Below, one piece after another: positions 33,176-64,000 of a stretch of DNA of 64,000 nucleotides. Source of the DNA: Escherichia coli (lineage in GTDB: Bacteria > Pseudomonadota > Gammaproteobacteria > Enterobacterales > Enterobacteriaceae); assembly GCF_001677475.2 (NCBI RefSeq), contig NZ_CP015229.1. One strand, given 5' to 3'. The position numbers and the translations under genes are program-made. Within the stretch, counting starts at the first letter, position 1. Every line of letters begins with the position of its first letter. A model generated the notes under the pieces. It was not told where the DNA came from, searched no databases, and worked only from the letters and a program-made list of their open reading frames with translations.

Positions 33176-33250
33176 TGGACGTCTTGTCGAGTAGCAATCG
33201 GCTTTTTATGACGCTGGTTTCAGATTGGTGACAAAGTGCCTGTGTTTATG

Positions 33251-33285
33251 CCGGATGCGGCGTTAACGCCTTATCCGGCCTACAA
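33251..33285. repeat. REP element downstream of barA
   Basis: GCCGGATGCGGCGTTAACGCCTTATCCGGCCTACA palindrome. Confidence 0.7.
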
Positions 33286-33370
33286 AACCAATTAAATTCA
33301 ATGAATTAAAAAGTATGTTGGCCTGATACGTAGCGCAACAGGCAATTTTGCGTTTGGCATCAGTCTCAAA

Positions 33371-33400
33371 CCGGCTCCTGACAGAGCCGGTTTTGGTTTT
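33371..33400 (+). terminator. Intrinsic terminator hairpin between barA and gudD
   Basis: AACCGGCTC-CTGACAG-AGCCGGTT followed by TTTGGTTTTCTG. Confidence 0.5.
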
Positions 33401-55500: not shown

Positions 55501-56601
55501 TTATCGCTCGTCGCGACGACCACCCACAGCAGCCCAGATACGGCGGACGTGCACCGTCACTTCTTCGCGATCGTGATACAACTGCCGCGCCTGAATCTGA
55601 GCATTTATGCCATGTTCATCAAGCTGTGCCTGAATATACGCCAGATTGTGTGACACTTCTTCATAGCGTTTTTTCATCGGCAGTTTGAGGTTGAAAATGG
55701 TTTCACGGCACCAGCCATTAACCAGCCACTGCGCCATCAATGCCGCAACTTTCGCCGGTTTTTCAACCATATCGCATACCATCCAGGAGATATTGCTGCG
55801 TGTCGGACGGAATTTGAAACCGTCTTCCCGCAGCCACGTCACCTGCCCGGTATCCATCAGACTTTGCGCCATCGGGCCGTTGTCGACGGAATAAACCCAC
55901 ATGTTGCGCTTTACCAGTTGGTAGGTCCAGCCGCCTGGGCAAGCGCCCAAATCCACCGCCCACATCCCGTTCGCCAGGCGTTCATCCCACTCATCCACAG
56001 GAATAAACACATGAAATGCCTCTTCCAGTTTGAGCGTGGAACGACTCGGCGCATCTGCCGGAAATTTCAGGCGCGGAATGCCCATATAGAACGGCGAATT
56101 ATTGTTGCTGTATGAGTAACCGGTATAGCAGCAACCTGGGGCAATAAAGAATACATGCACAACCGGACGCTTCGGCGTTTCATAGTTCGCCAGCACCCCG
56201 GCATCGCGCAAGGCAGCGCGTAGCGGCACGGTGAATTTACGGCAGAATTTCAGCAACTCTTTGCTTTCGTTGGTATCGGCAACTTCAACACGCAGTTCAC
56301 CGCCCTTCTCTACTACACCCTGTAACATGCCGACAATGGGGGTAATACGATCTTCTGGCGGCAAATGCTGCAGGAGTTCCCCCACCACAAACCACTGGCG
56401 GGCAAAAATTAATGAACTGAACGGCAGCTCACGGATTAACTTATCGCCATCATCAGGTTGATAACATTCATAAATGACATAACCCGCATTCTCTTTCACG
56501 CGGGCAAAACCGAAAATTTCCCGCTGGCCGGCTTTATCGGTAATTTCTGCGGCGCACTCTTTTTCAAAGCCCGGACGGCACAGCAATACAACCTTATTCA
56601 T
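55501..56601 (-). CDS. rlmM: 23S rRNA 2'-O-ribose C2498 methyltransferase
   Basis: 366-aa [45 protein letters not shown]... Confidence 0.94.
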
Positions 56602-56989
56602 GACTTACGCCCTTGCGCTTTAAACGGATAGCACCAACTAACATTAACGCCCAGCCCGCAAGGAAGCTCACGCCGCCAACCGGAGTGACAAACGCCCACA
56701 AACGCAGATGGGACAGTGCCAGGCAATAAAGGCTGCCGCTGAACAGCACCGTGCCTAACGCGAGGAAAACGCTACTCCAGTAAAACCAGATACTGATGCG
56801 ACGCTGCATTGCCACCGCCAGACCTAAGATCGCCAGCGTATGAAACGCCTGGTATTCGAGACCGGTCTGGATCCAGCCCATCTCAACGGCCCCCATGGTT
56901 TTACTTAACACATGCGCGCCAAAAGCGCCCAGTGCCACAAAAATGAAGCCGCTAATGGCGGCGAAAATCAGCATAAAACGGCTGGTCAT
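56594..56989 (-). CDS. ygdD: DUF423 inner-membrane protein
   Basis: 131-aa hydrophobic [31 protein letters not shown]...; overlaps the rlmM start by 8 nt. Confidence 0.9.
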
Positions 56990-57007
56990 GGTCGTACCCT
57001 ACGTAAA

Positions 57008-57925
57008 TTATTGTTCATAACGAAAGCGGAATTTTTCTTGTTCAGCAGCGGCTTTCGCCAGGATCCATTGACGAAAGGCGGCTATTTTACCCAGTTCTGC
57101 CTGGCTGTCATGACAAACCAGATAAAAAGCGTTTTTACTGACCAGAACATCATTAAACGGGCAAACAAGACGTCCGGCCTCGATTTCAGATTGCGCCATC
57201 ACGTTATTTGCCAGCGCCACTCCCTGCCCGTGGATAGCCGCTTGCAGCACCATGGCGCTATGGCTAAAAATTGGCCCTTGCTGAACGTTGATATGATTTA
57301 ACCCCAATTGGCGAGTATATGTCTGCCAGTCACGGCGTGACGCATCATGTAATAACGTATGTTTAGCCAGATCTTCCGGGGTCTTCAAGGGTTTTTCGCC
57401 AGTCAGCAGTAGCGGCGAACACACCGGCAATAAATATTCGGCGTACAGTTTTTCCACCCGTAGCCCCGGCCAGTTGCCCCGACCATAAAATATCGCCACA
57501 TCAACATCATCCGCCAGCTTATCTTCCTGACGATCAACCGCCTGGATTCGAACGTCAATTCCCGGATAAGCTGAATTAAAGCTGGAAAGTCGCGGAACCA
57601 ACCAATGAATGGCGAAACTGGGGAGTAAACTGACCGTCAACGCCCCCTTGGCGCTACGGGCCTGGAGTTTACGCGTCGCTTCGGTTAATTGCGAAAATAT
57701 CTCTTTGATATCGAGGAAATAGCTTTGACCTTCCTCGGTCAGCAGGAGTGAACGATTACGGCGGCGGAACAGTTTTAGCCCCAGAAAATCCTCAAGAGAC
57801 TTGATTTGATGACTTACTGCGGCCTGGGTCACAAAAAGCTCTTCTGCTGCGCGAGTGAAACTTAAATGGCGTGCTGCGGCATCAAAAACTCGTAAGGCAT
57901 TTAGCGGTGGTAATCGTTTAGACAT
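57008..57925 (-). CDS. gcvA: LysR-type regulator of the glycine cleavage system
   Basis: 305-aa ORF MSKRLPPLNALRVFDAAARHLSFTRAAEELFVTQAAVSHQIKSLEDFLGLKLF... Confidence 0.96.
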   Translation of the reverse strand: MSKRLPPLNALRVFDAAARHLSFTRAAEELFVTQAAVSHQIKSLEDFLGLKLFRRRNRSLLLTEEGQSYFLDIKEIFSQLTEATRKLQARSAKGALTVSLLPSFAIHWLVPRLSSFNSAYPGIDVRIQAVDRQEDKLADDVDVAIFYGRGNWPGLRVEKLYAEYLLPVCSPLLLTGEKPLKTPEDLAKHTLLHDASRRDWQTYTRQLGLNHINVQQGPIFSHSAMVLQAAIHGQGVALANNVMAQSEIEAGRLVCPFNDVLVSKNAFYLVCHDSQAELGKIAAFRQWILAKAAAEQEKFRFRYEQ

Positions 57926-58053
57926 GGCTTTTAAACTTTGATGTTAAATGAATTTAACAATTAGATCACACTGTGTAACCTATTAGTTTTTTTAATCTGA
58001 GCCATTATAAATTGTCCGTTGAGCTTCTACCAGCAAATACCTATAGTGGCGGC

Positions 58054-58259
58054 ACTTCCTGAGCCGGAACGAAAAGTTTTATCGGAATGCGTGTTCTGGT
58101 GAACTTTTGGCTTACGGTTGTGATGTTGTGTTGTTGTGTTTGCAATTGGTCTGCGATTCAGACCATGGTAGCAAAGCTACCTTTTTTCACTTCCTGTACA
58201 TTTACCCTGTCTGTCCATAGTGATTAATGTAGCACCGCCTAATTGCGGTGCTTTTTTTT
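58054..58259 (+). ncRNA. gcvB: GcvB regulatory sRNA
   Basis: Begins ACTTCCTGAGCCGGAACGAAAAGTTTTATCGG 7 nt after a TATAGT -10 (58042-58047), contains the G/U-rich region GTTGTGATGTTGTGTTGTTGTGTTTGC, ends with hairpin CACCGC-CTAATT-GCGGTG plus T8; divergent from gcvA as in E. coli. Confidence 0.92.
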
Positions 58260-58275
58260 ACCTTGCGATCGCGAA

Positions 58276-58503
58276 TTACTGATCCAGTTCGACCATCTCT
58301 TTCACGTCGGTACGGTTGATCTGCTGTTTGTTGCCATTAGCGTCTTTATACGAAATCATACCGGTATCGTTATCAGTCTGTGGTTTGCCGTCAGAGACGA
58401 TGGTACGTCCGTCATTGGTGTGCATCACATAGTTCGAACCGGAACAGGCGCTCAGGGCAAAAGTCAGCATACAGGCAGAAATAATTGCGGCAGTCTTTTT
58501 CAT
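58276..58503 (-). CDS. ygdI: DUF903 lipoprotein
   Basis: 75-aa frame [22 protein letters not shown]... (lipobox LSAC); AGGAG 6 nt upstream of the second ATG. Confidence 0.9.
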
Positions 58504-58694
58504 CATCTTCTCCTTAAAGCGATTAATAAATCTTAATAGTATTGATTAACAGGCTAAAATTAACGCCTAACACTATTCAGCATATGTTACTGACGCGGCT
58601 TCGCCAGGATATCCAGATAATTCTGATGGTTAGCACCCTCCTTGTATCAAAGTGAATTTTGCGTCACGATCGGTGCATCAAGCCGAGGAGTACC

Positions 58695-59900
58695 ATGAAC
58701 GTTTTTAATCCCGCGCAGTTTCGCGCCCAGTTTCCCGCGCTACAGGATGCGGGCGTCTATCTCGACAGCGCCGCGACCGCGCTTAAACCTGAAGCCGTGG
58801 TTGAAGCCACCCGACAGTTTTATAGCCTGAGCGCCGGAAACGTCCATCGCAGCCAGTTTGCCGAAGCCCAACGCCTGACCGCGCGTTATGAAGCTGCGCG
58901 GGAAAAAGTGGCACAATTACTGAATGCATCAGATGACAAAAATATCGTCTGGACGCGCGGCACCACTGAATCCATCAACATGGTGGCACAATGCTATGCG
59001 CGTCCGCGTCTGCAACCGGGCGATGAGATTATTGTCAGCGTGGCAGAACACCACGCCAACCTCGTCCCCTGGCTGATGGTCGCCCAACAAACCGGAGCCA
59101 AAGTGGTGAAGTTGCCGCTTAATGCGCAGCGTCTGCCAGATGTCGATTTGTTACCAGAGCTGATTACTCCCCGTAGCCGGATTCTGGCGTTGGGCCAGAT
59201 GTCGAACGTCACTGGCGGCTGCCCGGATCTGGCGCGAGCGATTACCTTTGCCCATTCAGCCGGGATGGTGGTGATGGTTGATGGTGCTCAGGGGGCAGTG
59301 CATTTCCCCGCGGATGTTCAGCAACTGGATATTGATTTCTATGCTTTTTCAGGTCACAAACTGTATGGCCCGACAGGGATAGGCGTGCTGTATGGCAAAT
59401 CAGAACTGCTGGAAGCGATGTCGCCCTGGCTGGGCGGCGGCAAAATGGTTCACGAAGTGAGTTTTGACGGCTTCACTACTCAATCTGCGCCGTGGAAACT
59501 GGAAGCTGGAACGCCAAATGTCGCTGGTGTCATAGGATTAAGCGCGGCGCTGGAATGGCTGGCAGATTACGATATCAACCAGGCCGAAAGCTGGAGCCGT
59601 AGCTTAGCAACGCTGGCGGAAGATGCGCTGGCGAAACGTCCCGGCTTTCGTTCATTCCGCTGCCAGGATTCCAGCCTGCTGGCCTTTGATTTTGCTGGCG
59701 TTCATCACAGCGATATGGTGACGCTGCTGGCGGAGTACGGTATTGCCCTGCGGGCCGGGCAGCATTGCGCTCAGCCGCTACTGGCAGAATTAGGCGTAAC
59801 CGGCACACTGCGCGCCTCTTTTGCGCCATATAATACAAAGAGTGATGTGGATGCGCTGGTGAATGCCGTTGACCGCGCGCTGGAATTATTGGTGGATTAA
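58695..59900 (+). CDS. csdA: cysteine desulfurase (sulfur-transfer) CsdA
   Basis: 401-aa frame [35 protein letters not shown]... (PLP-dependent class V); ORF-track start 58659 is an extension. Confidence 0.95.
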
Positions 59901-60343
59901 TGACGAACCCGCAATTCGCCGGACATCCGTTCGGCACAACCGTAACCGCAGAAACGTTACGCAATACCTTCGCACCGTTGACGCAATGGGAAGATAAATA
60001 TCGCCAGTTGATCATGCTGGGGAAACAGCTTCCGGCTTTGCCAGACGAGTTAAAAGCGCAGGCTAAAGAGATTGCCGGATGCGAAAACCGCGTCTGGCTG
60101 GGATATACCGTGGCTGAAAACGGTAAAATGCACTTCTTTGGCGACAGCGAAGGGCGCATTGTGCGCGGCCTGCTGGCGGTGTTGTTGACTGCCGTTGAGG
60201 GGAAAACCGCCACCGAGTTGCAGGCACAGTCACCGCTGGCATTGTTTGATGAGCTGGGATTACGTGCGCAACTTAGCGCCTCACGCAGCCAGGGGTTGAA
60301 TGCGTTAAGCGAGGCGATTATCGCTGCGGCGAAGCAGGTTTAA
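59900..60343 (+). CDS. csdE: sulfur acceptor protein CsdE
   Basis: 147-aa [46 protein letters not shown]...; start overlaps the csdA stop (TAATG). Confidence 0.95.
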
Positions 60344-60355
60344 GCACAGAACCGG

Positions 60356-60385
60356 GTCGGATAAGACGTTTGCGTCGCATCCGAC
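60356..60385. repeat. REP element between csdE and tcdA
   Basis: GTCGGATAAGACGTTTGCGTCGCATCCGAC palindrome. Confidence 0.65.
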
Positions 60386-60393
60386 CTGATTGT

Positions 60394-61200
60394 TTACCCC
60401 TGACGCGCCGCTTTCGCCATCATCTTCTTCAGCGCATGAGAAACCGCAACAAAACCAAAGGTGGCGGTCACCATCGTCGCGGCACCAAAGCCAGATGCAC
60501 AATCCATCCGCTTTGGCCCTTCTGCCGTGGCTTTCATCGCACACACCGTACCGTCTGACTGCGGATACACCAATGCTTCGGTAGAGAACACGCAATCCAC
60601 ACCGAGCTTACCTTTACTGTTTTTCACTACGCCAAAATCGCTTTTCAGGCGCTCGCGCAACTTCGCCGCCAACGGGTCCTGAATCGTTTTCGCCAGATCG
60701 GTAACCTGAATCTGCGTCGGGTCAATCTGCCCACCAGCGCCACCAGTCGTGACCAGCGGGATTTTATTGCGCCGACAATAAGCAATCAGCGCCGCTTTGG
60801 GCCGTACACTATCAATAGCATCAATCACGTACGAATAACCGGCATTCATATATTGCGCTACGTTATCCGGCGTCACGAAGTCATCCACCACCGTTACACG
60901 GCACTCCGGGTTAATCTGGCGAATACGCTCCGCCATTACTTCCGCTTTTGCCAGCCCGACGTTATCGCGCAGAGCGTGAATTTGCCGATTGGTATTGGTG
61001 ACGCACACATCATCCATATCGATAAGCGTGATTGCGCCAATCCCCGTGCGCGCTAGCGCTTCCGCCGCCCAGGAACCGACACCGCCAATACCCACCACAC
61101 AAATATGCGCGTCAGCAAACAGTTGCAATGCTTTTTCACCATACAGACGCGCTGTGCCACCAAAACGCTGACGCCATGCATCACTAATTACCACAGACAT
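60394..61200 (-). CDS. tcdA: tRNA threonylcarbamoyladenosine dehydratase (E1-like)
   Basis: 268-aa ORF MSVVISDAWRQRFGGTARLYGEKALQLFADAHICVVGIGGVGSWAAEALAR... (ThiF/MoeB-type GxGxxG). Confidence 0.94.
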   Translation of the reverse strand: MSVVISDAWRQRFGGTARLYGEKALQLFADAHICVVGIGGVGSWAAEALARTGIGAITLIDMDDVCVTNTNRQIHALRDNVGLAKAEVMAERIRQINPECRVTVVDDFVTPDNVAQYMNAGYSYVIDAIDSVRPKAALIAYCRRNKIPLVTTGGAGGQIDPTQIQVTDLAKTIQDPLAAKLRERLKSDFGVVKNSKGKLGVDCVFSTEALVYPQSDGTVCAMKATAEGPKRMDCASGFGAATMVTATFGFVAVSHALKKMMAKAARQG

Positions 61201-61223
61201 AGCACCTCAGAATTAAAAAGGGC

Positions 61224-61403
61224 GAGGTTATCCCTCACCCTAAACGCATAAATGCCTGATGCGCTACGCTTATCAGGCCTACATAACTCCTGCAATATTT
61301 TGGATTTGCATGAGTTGTAGGCCGGATAAGGCGTTCACGCCGCATCCGGCATGAACCACGCGCACTTAGTCAATAATCAGGATGAGAGGTTATCCCTCAC
61401 CCT
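61224..61403. repeat. BIME (two REP palindromes) flanked by perfect 18-bp direct repeats
   Basis: Direct repeats GAGGTTATCCCTCACCCT at 61224-61241 and 61386-61403; between them REP GCCTGATGCGCTACGCTTATCAGGCCTACA (61254-61283) and REP TAGGCCGGATAAGGCGTTCACGCCGCATCCGGC (61318-61350). Confidence 0.75.
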
Positions 61404-61438
61404 GTCGTATCCGTCAAAACGGTATACAGAATATCACA

Positions 61439-62536
61439 TCAGCCGCTAAAGACGTTACCTGCGCCCGGGGCGGTTTTCAGCACCCAGACACGTCCATAGT
61501 GGTTGTACCAACCTGCGCGGTGTCCGGCTTCCGGCCCGATCCCTTGATAGATATCGAAGTGTTGGCCTTTGATTGCGCCACCGACATCCAGCGCCACCAT
61601 CAGACGCAATTCGTACTGACCGTTAAATTTGCCGTTATTATCCAGCAGCGGCACTTCTGCCAGCAAGGTAGTACCTGGCGGAATAATTGAACGATCAGAG
61701 GCAACAGAAGCACGGCCAACCAGCGGCACCGCACTTGCCCCTTTCACCGGTGCAAAAGATTGCGGTTTAAAGAAGACGAAAGACGGGTTCTGTTCAAGCA
61801 GCTCGCGAACCTCGGCTTCACTGTGTGTTTCGCCCCAGTGACGAATCGCCTGCATCGACATATCTTCTTTTTTCACTTCGCCACGGTCGATCAGCACCTT
61901 ACCAATGCTGCGATAGGCATGACCGTTTTTCCCTGCATAGCTGAAAAAGTTAAGCGGACTGCCATCACCAAAGTCGATATACCCGCTACCCTGCACATCC
62001 ATAATGAAGTTATCCATCAGGGAGTTACTGTAAGCGAGAATATATTTATCACTCAGCGCTCCTGCGTAGATCTCCGCACGAGACGGCAGACGACCACGTT
62101 TTTGCGGCATACGGTAAATCGGATACTGGAACTCGCCCTGGCGGGTATGGCGTGCCTGAATTACCGGCGTGTAATAGCCTGTAAACTGCACGTTACCATA
62201 GTTGTCGGCACCTTCCATCTGCCAGGCATCAATGCCGAACTGGCGCATATTGCGGGTATCACCGCCTGCGCGCAGCCACTCTTGCACCGCGTTATAAACA
62301 TTACTCTGGTTGCCATACAGACGCGGTGACGAATTACGGATATGGTTAATTTGCTCGGCAAAATCACCGGCGTTAATCGGCGCGCCAACGGCATCTGGCT
62401 GGTTCACCAGAGAGAAAGGCTGGGTAAATTTCCCGTCTTTATATTGCTGTCCGCGATCGGTTGGTTTGGAAGAGCAGGCGGCAAGCATTGCCACAACCGT
62501 GCCCATAAGAAGGTACTTTACCCAACGTCCTTTCAT
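61439..62536 (-). CDS. mltA: membrane-bound lytic murein transglycosylase A
   Basis: 365-aa frame MKGRWVKYLLMGTVVAMLAACSSKPTDRG... (lipobox LAAC); ORF-track extension to 62818 reads antisense through the tRNA genes and is rejected. Confidence 0.95.
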   Translation of the reverse strand: MKGRWVKYLLMGTVVAMLAACSSKPTDRGQQYKDGKFTQPFSLVNQPDAVGAPINAGDFAEQINHIRNSSPRLYGNQSNVYNAVQEWLRAGGDTRNMRQFGIDAWQMEGADNYGNVQFTGYYTPVIQARHTRQGEFQYPIYRMPQKRGRLPSRAEIYAGALSDKYILAYSNSLMDNFIMDVQGSGYIDFGDGSPLNFFSYAGKNGHAYRSIGKVLIDRGEVKKEDMSMQAIRHWGETHSEAEVRELLEQNPSFVFFKPQSFAPVKGASAVPLVGRASVASDRSIIPPGTTLLAEVPLLDNNGKFNGQYELRLMVALDVGGAIKGQHFDIYQGIGPEAGHRAGWYNHYGRVWVLKTAPGAGNVFSG

Positions 62537-62689
62537 TGTTCTCTTCTTCAGGTTAAAAAATAAGGCGCAACGAAGATAACAAACCGCCGCGTTTAATGAA
62601 ATGAGCAGCCTCTCCCTGACGCAAATTTTGCACAAAAAATAGGCTTTAGTGATTTGTTTTTGTTCAAAATCATGCCAAATCCGTGATCG

Positions 62690-62740
62690 GGGTAAAAAAA
62701 AGGTTGCATGAAAACGCGAGCGGAGTATAGTGCGCATCCA
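62690..62740 (+). promoter_or_regulatory. Promoter of the tRNA-fMet (metZWV) operon
   Basis: TTGCAT (62704-62709), 16-nt spacer, TATAGT (62726-62731), GC-rich discriminator, upstream A-tract; mature tRNA 5' end at 62745. Confidence 0.6.
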
Positions 62741-62744
62741 CGGA

Positions 62745-62821
<77 letters not shown>

Positions 62822-62854
62822 ATTAAAATTTGATGAAGTAAAGCAGTACGGTGA

Positions 62855-62931
<77 letters not shown>

Positions 62932-62965
62932 ATCAAAATTTGATGAAGTAAAAGCAGTACGGTGA

Positions 62966-63042
<77 letters not shown>

Positions 63043-63050
63043 ATTATTGA

Positions 63051-63073
63051 ACACCCTGACGGGTGTTTTTTTG
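63051..63073 (+). terminator. Intrinsic terminator of the tRNA-fMet operon
   Basis: ACACCC-TGAC-GGGTGT followed by T7. Confidence 0.85.
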
Positions 63074-63088
63074 TTTCTGCTCTCCCAT

Positions 63089-63116
63089 AAAAAAGGCGCC
63101 ATTCAGCGCCTTTTTA
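63089..63116. terminator. Bidirectional terminator hairpin between metV and amiC
   Basis: A6-GGCGC-CATTCA-GCGCC-T5, immediately 3' of the amiC stop at 63117. Confidence 0.7.
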
Positions 63117-64000
63117 TCATCCCCTTCTCGCCAGCGTCGCCCCATCGGCAAAATACGCTTTAATCCCCGCAAGAATAGACTCCGCAACTTCCTGCTGGAA
63201 AGTCGCCGTTTTCAGTTTACGCTCTTCCTCAACGTTACTGATAAACGCCGTTTCGACCAGAATGGAGGGAATATCTGGTGCCTTTAGTACGGCAAACCCG
63301 GCCTGTTCAACCTGATTTTTATGCAGCTTGTTGATTTTACCGAGCTTATTCAGCACCGCTTTACCAAACTTAAGGCTGTCGGCAATGGTCAGCGACTGCA
63401 CCATATCGAACATGGTGTGGTCGACATAGCGGTCACCGCTTTTGCTCACGCCACCAATCAAGTCCGAGGCGTTCTGGGTCTGTGCCAGATATTTTGCCGC
63501 AGTACTGGTTGCGCCTTTGGTTGAGAGCGCAAACACTGAGGAACCGCTCGGCTGGCGACTGGTAAAGGCGTCTGCATGGATAGAGACAAACAGGTCGGCA
63601 CGCTGTTTCTGGGCTTTTGCTACGCGCACTTGCAACGGAATGAAGATGTCTTCATTGCGCGTCATGTACACCTTCATATTGCCCTCTTTCTCGATCAGAG
63701 AGCGCAAACGGCGAGCTATTTGCAATACCACGTCTTTTTCGCGCGTTTTGTATTTCCCCACCGCACCGGAGTCTTCGCCGCCGTGGCCAGGGTCAAGCAT
63801 AATAACAATCGGACGATCGCGCCCTGCTTTACCCGGTTGTGGACCACTTTGTGCTGGCGGCACCTGCTTTTCGAGGTCGCCTTTGTTGTAATCCTCCAGC
63901 AGCGCCAGCAGCGGGTCCTGCATATCCTGTGCATTGGCCGGATAGAGGTCCATCACCAGACGCTCTTTAAACCCGGCGACCGGCGCAAGGGCAAACAGCT
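63117..64000 (-). CDS. amiC: N-acetylmuramoyl-L-alanine amidase AmiC (C-terminal part; N-terminus outside window)
   Basis: Frame open from the window edge to stop at 63117; encodes the Amidase_3 catalytic region ...[19 protein letters not shown]...FVSIHADAF... ending ...[16 protein letters not shown]. Confidence 0.93.

What the first reader, a model, noticed from the sequence alone, without database searches (positions are those of the whole stretch)
61224..61403. BIME flanked by perfect 18-bp direct repeats between tcdA and mltA
Seen in sequence: GAGGTTATCCCTCACCCT occurs twice in direct orientation (61224-61241 and 61386-61403), bracketing two REP palindromes. REP/BIME elements are not normally associated with long flanking direct repeats, so this looks like a duplication-mediated insertion footprint or a composite repeat unit.
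Basis: seen in the sequence. Interest (0 to 1): 0.4.

Follow-up and report, generated by a model that had tools for sequence, protein, structure and literature searches.

The report
BIME-1 flanked by duplicated terminator hairpin
The two 18-base repeats are two copies of the small terminator hairpin that sits between mltA and tcdA. The hairpin was duplicated when a known mobile-looking repeat (BIME-1) landed on it, and about half of the other BIME-1 copies sampled are bracketed in the same way, which gives a concrete clue to how these elements insert.

Summary
GAGGTTATCCCTCACCCT occurs exactly twice, 162 bp apart, around a BIME-1 (Y REP, L linker, Z REP).

Read on the minus strand (mltA to tcdA), the tcdA-proximal 18-mer is the first 18 nt of a 23-nt terminator-type hairpin plus T-run. 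This hairpin lies just upstream of the tcdA ribosome-binding site.

Enterobacter and Citrobacter carry that hairpin once, with no BIME. E. albertii and four cryptic Escherichia lineages carry the same BIME between two hairpin copies. In E. coli, 2751 of 5426 genomes are filled. The rest are mostly exactly 162 bp shorter, in at least four haplotypes that look like repeated deletions between the repeats. One Escherichia lineage has amplified the 162-bp unit in tandem.

The arrangement is not peculiar to this locus. At 10 of 23 other BIME-1 loci the element is bracketed by direct copies (15-25 nt aligned) of a locus-specific stem-loop. Empty alleles checked at two of these loci hold a single hairpin.

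So this is a hairpin-length target duplication. IS200/IS605-type transposition, the proposed model for REP mobility, makes no flanking repeats. I found no description of this in the papers I could read.

The parts
60394..61200 (-). tcdA coding sequence. The ATG is at 61200-61198 and the ribosome-binding GAGG at 61208-61205.
   Evidence: ORF list; RefSeq annotation of orthologous loci.
61210..61241 (-). Complete terminator-type hairpin AGGGTGAGG-GATAA-CCTCGCCCT (61241..61219) followed by TTTTTAATT. This is the right-hand (tcdA-proximal) copy of the duplicated target.
   Evidence: Terminator scan; RNA fold -16.8 kcal/mol, z -5.0; the same hairpin is present once in Enterobacter and Citrobacter.
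61224..61241 (-). tcdA-proximal 18-mer of the finding. It is the 5' arm, loop and first 4 nt of the 3' arm of the hairpin above.
61242..61378 (-). BIME-1 body. It comprises a right-end remnant (61242-61253), Y REP (61254-61283), L linker (61284-61315), Z REP (61316-61351) and the left-end motif GATTATTGACTAAGTGCGCGTGGTTCA (61378..61352). The usual 13-nt right terminus GTCATCAGTCTCA is missing.
   Evidence: Inverted repeats; alignment to other BIME-1 copies; the L linker matches Rfam RF02751 ES036 above its gathering score.
61379..61403 (-). Left-hand (mltA-proximal) copy of the hairpin, AGGGTGAGGGATAACCTCTCATCCT, with no T-run after it. It contains the second 18-mer (61386-61403).
   Evidence: it folds as a 10-bp hairpin, -14.5 kcal/mol.
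61404..61438 (-). Spacer between the mltA stop codon and the first hairpin copy. Its haplotype TATACCGTTTTGACGGATACGAC is shared with one class of empty alleles.
61439..62536 (-). mltA coding sequence (stop codon at 61441..61439).
33198..33395 (+). Second BIME-1 of the window (element about 33221-33368, between barA and gudD). It is flanked by degenerate direct copies of a stem-loop: AATCGGCTTTTTATGACGCTGGTTT on the left and AACCGGCTCCTGACAGAGCCGGTTTT on the right.
   Evidence: fixed in 5205 of 5426 E. coli genomes.

Best explanation
A BIME-1 (also called RIB or RIP; Y REP, L linker, Z REP) inserted at the foot of the intrinsic-terminator-type hairpin between mltA and tcdA, in an ancestor of the genus Escherichia. 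The insertion duplicated the whole hairpin.

The upstream copy lost its T-run. The downstream copy kept the T-run and its position just before the tcdA ribosome-binding site, so the terminator/leader structure was preserved.

The same architecture holds at about half of the other BIME-1 loci examined: hairpin, then the BIME-1 with its inverted-repeat ends, then the hairpin plus T-run. It therefore behaves as a target-site duplication whose length is set by the target's structure (15-25 nt aligned at the loci sampled).

Shown: the duplication, the single-copy empty sites, the generality, and the later consequences. Those consequences are recurrent precise deletion between the repeats in E. coli and tandem amplification of the 162-bp unit in one lineage.

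Inferred: the mechanism. Strand transfers would occur at the 3' foot of the hairpin on each of the two strands. A GC stem followed by T gives the C|T site that the REP-associated Y1 transposase cleaves in single-stranded DNA. The two cuts would be staggered by the length of the hairpin, and gap filling would then duplicate the hairpin.
For: - Hairpin: the terminator scan and RNA folds identify it.
- Empty sites in other genera: Enterobacter asburiae, E. soli and Citrobacter sedlakii have mltA-stop, spacer, a single AGGGTGAGGGATAACCTC[A/G]CCCTTTTT, then tcdA.
- Old, orthologous insertion: E. albertii and four cryptic Escherichia lineages carry the same right-end-truncated BIME at the same position between two hairpin copies. 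BIME identity is 88.7-95.7% across their copies and locus identity to the window is 89.6-94.5% in the four of these lineages that were aligned.
- E. coli polymorphism: 2751 of 5426 genomes are filled. The other alleles seen were exactly 162 bp shorter, apart from the APEC O2-211-type duplication allele.
- Recurrent deletion: empty haplotypes pair with filled haplotypes. The 536 type has the K-12 spacer and the left-copy hairpin. L150 has the window's spacer and is exactly the product of deletion between the window's 18-mers.
- The 18-mer occurs nowhere else in Escherichia genomes.
- Generality: at 10 of 23 independent BIME-1 loci the element's own flanks align with score >=10, against 12 of 506 mismatched flank pairs. 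The repeats abut the element ends in 8 of 23 loci against 2 of 506 controls.
- Further empty sites: alleles at tkt|prohibitin (173 bp shorter) and ccmH|narP (176 bp shorter) hold one hairpin plus T-run.
- Symmetry: both strands read stem-TT followed by sAGAyTGwTGACAAA.
- Enzymology background: RAYT cleaves single-stranded DNA at C|T near hairpins and can act on both strands (PMC3333891).
Against: - About half of the BIME-1 loci show no recognisable right-hand hairpin copy.
It is not a whole-genome census.
- Copies of a hairpin pair differ by 10-16%, mostly in the loop. All insertions seen are therefore old, and no fresh perfect duplication was observed.
- IS200/IS605-type Y1 transposases are described as making no flanking repeats (PMC3333891, PMC2817692).
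- Several junctions lack a C|T at the stem end.
- At this locus the left junction carries 2 extra nt and the element lacks its 13-nt right terminus, so the exact original breakpoints are ambiguous.
- No experiment shows that the hairpin terminates transcription.
Confidence: 0.75

Rival explanations
1. Copy-choice, with no transposase. Replication stalls at the folded hairpin. The nascent strand switches to a BIME-1 elsewhere and then returns to the other foot of the folded hairpin. This re-copies the hairpin and so duplicates it.
For: The duplication length equals the hairpin length at every locus. That is what is expected if the two feet of a folded hairpin sit side by side. No enzyme is known to make such duplications.
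Against: The element ends are the same conserved inverted repeats at independent loci. This points to end-specific processing rather than random template switching. There is no homology between the targets and the element ends.
Confidence: 0.15
2. The hairpin was already tandemly duplicated, and the BIME then inserted between the two copies without making any duplication of its own (the classical IS200/IS605 style).
For: It fits the published no-duplication rule for Y1 transposases (PMC3333891).
Against: Three outgroup species and all empty alleles have one hairpin only. The same coincidence would be needed at 10 or more independent loci.
Confidence: 0.05
3. The BIME is a recent insertion within E. 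coli, and the E. coli empty alleles are the untouched ancestral state.
For: Some empty alleles (L148, L149) carry a hairpin identical to the Enterobacter one.
Against: E. albertii and the cryptic clades carry the same truncated element at the same site. The 536-type and L150-type empty alleles carry left-copy or lineage-specific variants plus the matching spacer haplotype of filled alleles.
Confidence: 0.05
4. The two 18-mers are independent occurrences of a selected regulatory motif, not a duplication.
For: The hairpin is conserved across genera.
Against: The expected chance count is 0.02. The 18-mer is absent elsewhere in Escherichia genomes. Empty alleles differ by exactly one repeat plus the BIME.
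Confidence: 0.02

Closest known systems
BIME-1 / RIB / RIP elements of E. coli (Gilson, Bachellier, Boccard, Oppenheim; reviewed in PMC3333891)
   Same: Two inverted REPs (Y and Z) separated by the long conserved L linker, a single copy per locus, an intergenic position at the 3' end of a gene, and presence/absence polymorphism among strains (PMC1187871, citing Bachellier 1997).
   Different: The descriptions I could read do not mention flanking duplications of the local terminator hairpin. This copy also lacks the 13-nt right terminus.
REPINs mobilised by RAYT (TnpA-REP), relatives of IS200/IS605
   Same: REP doublets with GTAG/CTAC feet. The proposed enzyme recognises hairpins in single-stranded DNA and cleaves at C|T.
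   Different: IS200/IS605 transposition makes no flanking repeats. Here a 15-25 nt duplication (as aligned) is found.
Classical MITEs (for example Correia, ERIC, RUP)
   Same: A short non-coding element with terminal inverted repeats, flanked by a target duplication and foldable into a long hairpin.
   Different: MITE duplications have a fixed short length set by the transposase (2-9 bp). Here the length varies and equals the target stem-loop.
Bacterial class C group II introns (from memory: Robart, Seo and Zimmerly 2007)
   Same: They insert immediately after intrinsic-terminator stem-loops, recognising the DNA structure.
   Different: They are retroelements encoding a reverse transcriptase and do not duplicate the hairpin.
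IS1397 / ISKpn1, which insert into REP loops
   Same: Structure-directed targeting of an extragenic hairpin.
   Different: Here the hairpin is the target and the BIME is the inserted element. Those insertion sequences make short fixed duplications.

Membership tests
BIME-1 (RIB/RIP) | One Y-type and one Z-type REP in inverted orientation | tested here: met
   Arms 61269-61283 and 61316-61330, 93% complementary. Aligns over its whole length with 23 other BIME-1 loci.
BIME-1 (RIB/RIP) | Long conserved L linker carrying an IHF site | tested here: inconclusive
   A 32-nt linker is present, aligns to other copies, and matches Rfam ES036 at 46.6 bits against a gathering score of 37.6. IHF binding cannot be tested here.
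BIME-1 (RIB/RIP) | Conserved outer motifs at both ends (left CAGATTGTTGACAAAGTGC; right GTCATCAGTCTCA) | tested here: not met
   The left motif is present (GATTATTGACTAAGTGC). The right 13-nt terminus is absent in the window, K-12, E. albertii and the clades. This is a truncated member.
BIME-1 (RIB/RIP) | A single unit per locus, not a tandem array | tested here: met
   One unit in the window and in E. coli. The exception is Escherichia sp. MOD1-EC7003, with at least 7 units.
Target-site duplication of a mobile element | An empty site with exactly one copy of the repeat | tested here: met
   Alleles 162 bp shorter in E. coli and single-hairpin sites in Enterobacter and Citrobacter. The same holds at two other loci.
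Target-site duplication of a mobile element | Repeats abut the element ends and recur at independent insertions | tested here: met
   8 of 23 loci anchored against 2 of 506 controls.
IS200/IS605-type (RAYT) single-strand transposition | No flanking direct repeats on insertion | tested here: not met
   Direct repeats, 15-25 nt as aligned, are present. The rule is stated in PMC3333891.
IS200/IS605-type (RAYT) single-strand transposition | Dependence on TnpA-REP acting on REP hairpins with a GTAG foot | not testable with these tools
   GTAG/CTAC feet are present in the sequence. Enzyme dependence needs an experiment.
Intrinsic (Rho-independent) terminator | A GC-rich stem-loop directly followed by a U-run | tested here: met
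   9-bp stem, 5-nt loop, T5; -16.8 kcal/mol; conserved across three genera, with an A/G change in the 3' arm that keeps the pair as U-A or U-G.
Intrinsic (Rho-independent) terminator | Termination of transcription in vivo | not testable with these tools
   The only support is a computational listing of ygdL (= tcdA) in a BIME-associated attenuator cluster (PMC2965389).

The most novel reading that the evidence does not exclude
BIME-1 elements integrate by a structure-guided reaction at the feet of intrinsic-terminator hairpins on both DNA strands. This leaves a target duplication whose length equals the hairpin. It would be the first genomic footprint of how E. coli REP doublets insert. It would also mean that the REP-associated transposase, or another hairpin-foot nuclease, works differently from the IS200/IS605 paradigm. 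Captured hairpin pieces would then become the linker motifs of tandem BIME arrays, as seen in Escherichia sp. MOD1-EC7003.
Probability: 0.35. Interest if true: 0.8.

Novelty: new variant of a known kind. Interest (0 to 1): 0.6.

Why it matters
How REP/BIME elements spread is still described as unresolved; a 2026 preprint says the in vivo insertion mechanism 'is not fully established'. A reproducible, structure-defined target duplication at terminator hairpins gives three things. It gives a testable target rule: a GC stem followed by T. It gives a geometry: cuts at both feet of the hairpin. It explains why these elements sit in 3' UTRs without destroying termination. It also explains the presence/absence polymorphism of BIME-1 among strains as recurrent deletion between the duplicated hairpins. 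Finally, it shows one route from a single BIME-1 to a tandem array.

Tried and rejected
- **K-12 REP annotation:** I looked for REP/RIP features in the current RefSeq K-12 record, but none are listed. A whole-genome census from annotation was therefore not possible.
- **Older key papers:** I tried to read Bachellier 1997 (PMC1207841), Gilson 1991 (PMC333889) and Boccard & Prentki 1993 (PMC413762). None is held, so prior description of the flanking hairpins cannot be excluded.
- **Literature searches:** Seven full-text searches and nine papers searched for relevant terms gave no mention of terminator or hairpin duplication next to BIMEs.
- **tyrT repeats:** I tested from memory whether the 178-bp repeats downstream of tyrT are BIME-1. 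They are not. Only a REP further downstream matches.
- **Donor locus:** I considered a donor carrying the 18-mer (gene conversion, or an att-type core). This is rejected because the 18-mer occurs only at this locus in Escherichia.
- **Hairpin-foot detector:** My detector is lax, with an 18% background. It supports enrichment only roughly.
- **Source strain:** I could not identify it. No complete E. coli genome is more than 98.3% identical over 56000-64000.
- **Outgroups not retrieved:** E. fergusonii and Salmonella alleles were not obtained.

Full report
**1. The observation**

The 18-mer GAGGTTATCCCTCACCCT lies at 61224-61241 and 61386-61403. It has no other copy in the window even with three mismatches, against 0.02 matches expected by chance. 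The two copies are 162 bp apart. They bracket two REPs in inverted orientation.

Both flanking genes are on the minus strand. mltA ends at 61439 and tcdA starts at 61200. The natural reading direction is therefore the minus strand, from mltA to tcdA.

**2. What the 18-mer is**

On the minus strand, the tcdA-proximal copy is the first 18 nt of AGGGTGAGG-GATAA-CCTCGCCCT followed by TTTTTAATT.
- This is a 9-bp stem with a 5-nt loop and a T-run.
- The terminator scan picks it up.
- It folds at -16.8 kcal/mol, z = -5.
- Its T-run ends a few bases before the tcdA ribosome-binding site.

The mltA-proximal copy is followed by TCATCCT rather than by a T-run. In this window it still folds as a 10-bp hairpin (-14.5 kcal/mol). 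In K-12 it folds with a 2-nt bulge (-11.7 kcal/mol).

The 144 nt between the 18-mers align over nearly their whole length to other BIME-1 copies. The L linker matches Rfam family ES036 above its gathering score.

**3. Empty sites and age of the insertion**

I scanned one genome from each of about 100,000 species for AGGGTGAGGGRTAACCTC. In Escherichia the pattern occurs only at this locus.

| Lineage | State at the mltA-tcdA site |
|---|---|
| Enterobacter asburiae, E. soli, Citrobacter sedlakii | Single hairpin plus T-run, no BIME |
| E. albertii | Same BIME at the same position, between two hairpin copies |
| Four cryptic Escherichia lineages | Same as E. albertii |

- The BIME in all the filled lineages lacks the same 13-nt right terminus.
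- BIME identity to the window copy is 88.7-95.7% across the copies in these lineages. The locus as a whole is 89.6-94.5% identical in the four lineages that were aligned.
- The insertion is therefore old and orthologous, and the state before it was a single hairpin.
- In E. albertii the upstream copy is AGAGTGAGAAATAATCTCGCTCT. It is still a full 9-bp hairpin, with two G-C to A-U double changes.

**4. Polymorphism in E. coli**

Of 5426 complete genomes, 2751 are filled. These include K-12, BL21 and O157:H7. Apart from a duplication allele found in a few dozen genomes (section 8), the other alleles seen were exactly 162 bp shorter. These include 536, ST131 and APEC O1.

The empty alleles are not one haplotype.
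- **536 type:** about 1100 genomes. It has the spacer of the K-12 filled allele and the left-copy hairpin variant (loop GGTAA).
- **L150:** it has the spacer of this window and is exactly what deletion between the window's perfect 18-mers would leave.
- **L148 and L149:** they have an Enterobacter-like hairpin.
- **L151:** it matches the second copy of a duplication allele described in section 8.

Every non-coli Escherichia examined is filled. Taken together, this points to recurrent deletion between the repeats rather than to surviving never-occupied sites. This fits the 'excision of a whole BIME-1' attributed to Bachellier 1997, whose abstract I recall from memory; PMC1187871 reports only that BIME-1 are present or absent among isolates.

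**5. Is this locus special?**

It is not. A metagenome scan for the BIME-1 left motif returned 120 stretches of DNA.

- At 10 of these 23 loci, the 45 nt left and right of the same element align with score >=10. Only 12 of 506 mismatched left/right pairs do so.
- At 8 of 23 loci the repeat abuts both element ends. Only 2 of 506 controls do so.
- Each repeat aligns over 15-25 nt and is a GC-rich stem-loop.
- The right copy is usually followed by a T-run. The left copy is followed by TT plus the element end.

Empty alleles were checked at two of these loci.

| Locus | Filled genomes | Empty allele | Content of empty allele |
|---|---|---|---|
| tkt / prohibitin-family gene | 1214 | 173 bp shorter | One hairpin plus T-run |
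| ccmH / narP | 1505 | 176 bp shorter | One hairpin plus T-run |

The junctions are two-fold symmetric. Each strand reads stem-TT followed by sAGAyTGwTGACAAA.

The second BIME-1 in this window lies between barA and gudD. It is fixed in E. coli and shows a decayed version of the same arrangement.

**6. Mechanism**

Shown:
- a hairpin-length duplication that behaves as a target-site duplication;
- conserved inverted-repeat element ends;
- preservation of a complete terminator downstream of the insert.

Inferred: cuts or strand transfers occur at the 3' foot of the hairpin on each strand, staggered by the length of the hairpin, and are followed by gap filling. A GC stem followed by T offers the C|T dinucleotide next to a hairpin. 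That is what TnpA-REP cleaves in single-stranded DNA, and that enzyme can act on both strands of a BIME (PMC3333891).

Points against the enzymatic part:
- IS200/IS605 relatives are described as making no flanking repeats.
- Several junctions lack C|T.
- A copy-choice model at a folded hairpin is a live rival.

**7. Comparison with what is known**

The element is a known BIME-1, and its presence/absence polymorphism is known. I did not find the flanking duplication of the local terminator hairpin described in any paper I could read. Novelty is therefore claimed with caution: a newly noticed property of a known kind.

**8. Other variants seen at this locus**

- APEC O2-211 and a few dozen other genomes (up to about 80 fully match a probe for the window-type junction) carry a 278-bp direct duplication. 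It covers the mltA 3' end, the spacer and the hairpin, with half a BIME (one Z REP) at the join.
- Escherichia sp. MOD1-EC7003 has at least 7 tandem 162-bp units, each a BIME-1 plus a 20-nt hairpin piece. It also has a further AT-rich insertion of about 215 bp inside the first hairpin copy, again with short direct repeats.

These variants suggest that this hairpin is a recurrent site of rearrangement.

**9. Verdict**

It is wrong in treating the arrangement as atypical for BIMEs, and it missed the terminator. The interest lies in the generality of the arrangement and in what it implies for how BIME-1 inserts.

Noticed in passing
L003:500-1128 (E. coli APEC O2-211, NZ_CP006834.2 4074199-4074827): A third allele, in a few dozen genomes (up to about 80). 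It is a 278-bp direct duplication (97.5% identical copies) of the mltA 3' end, spacer and hairpin, with only the left BIME motif, one Z REP and 'ATC' at the join. RefSeq annotates the extra fragment as a partial '3D domain-containing protein' pseudogene.
   Followed up: partly
L021:13920-14685 and L020:1-600 (Escherichia sp. MOD1-EC7003): The 162-bp unit (BIME-1 plus a 20-nt hairpin piece) is repeated in tandem at least 7 times, and the assembly breaks inside the array. The first hairpin copy also carries an AT-rich insertion of about 215 bp, of unknown nature, flanked by GGTGAGGGATA repeats.
   Followed up: partly
window:33198-33395: A second BIME-1, between barA and gudD, fixed in E. coli (5205 of 5426 genomes). 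Its flanking stem-loop copies have decayed (own-flank score 8, not significant on its own).
   Followed up: yes
window:56000-64000 versus window:33040-33520: No complete E. coli genome is more than 98.3% identical over the 8-kb mltA region, and many strains tie at that value. The barA-gudD segment reaches 99.2% to strain 1190. The source looks like an unsampled or mosaic E. coli lineage.
   Followed up: partly
window:61275-61317 (minus): The BIME-1 L linker is what Rfam calls the sRNA family ES036/CssrF (RF02751; 46.6 bits against a gathering score of 37.6). The adjacent REP gives a sub-threshold match to naRNA4.
   Followed up: no
window:61391-61419 (minus): In this lineage the spacer plus the left hairpin copy reads TTGACG-17 nt-GATAAC, a weak sigma-70-like pair. 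It is absent in K-12 (TTTACG ... GGTAAC). The promoter scan did not call it.
   Followed up: no
L005:3420-3500 region (E. albertii NBRC 107761): The upstream hairpin copy has two compensatory G-C to A-U pair changes, and about 13 nt of the BIME left motif are deleted. The upstream hairpin therefore seems to be maintained as a structure.
   Followed up: partly
L147 (K-12 1285800-1288200, downstream of tyrV): The three 178-bp repeats after tyrV each end with the last 19 nt of the tRNA (AATCCTTCCCCCACCACCA). This unit-plus-duplicated-3'-end layout resembles the tandem array above, but the unit is not a BIME-1.
   Followed up: partly
window:60355-60389: A solitary REP-like sequence in the short gap between the convergent csdE and tcdA genes (80% match to the Z REP).
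   Followed up: no
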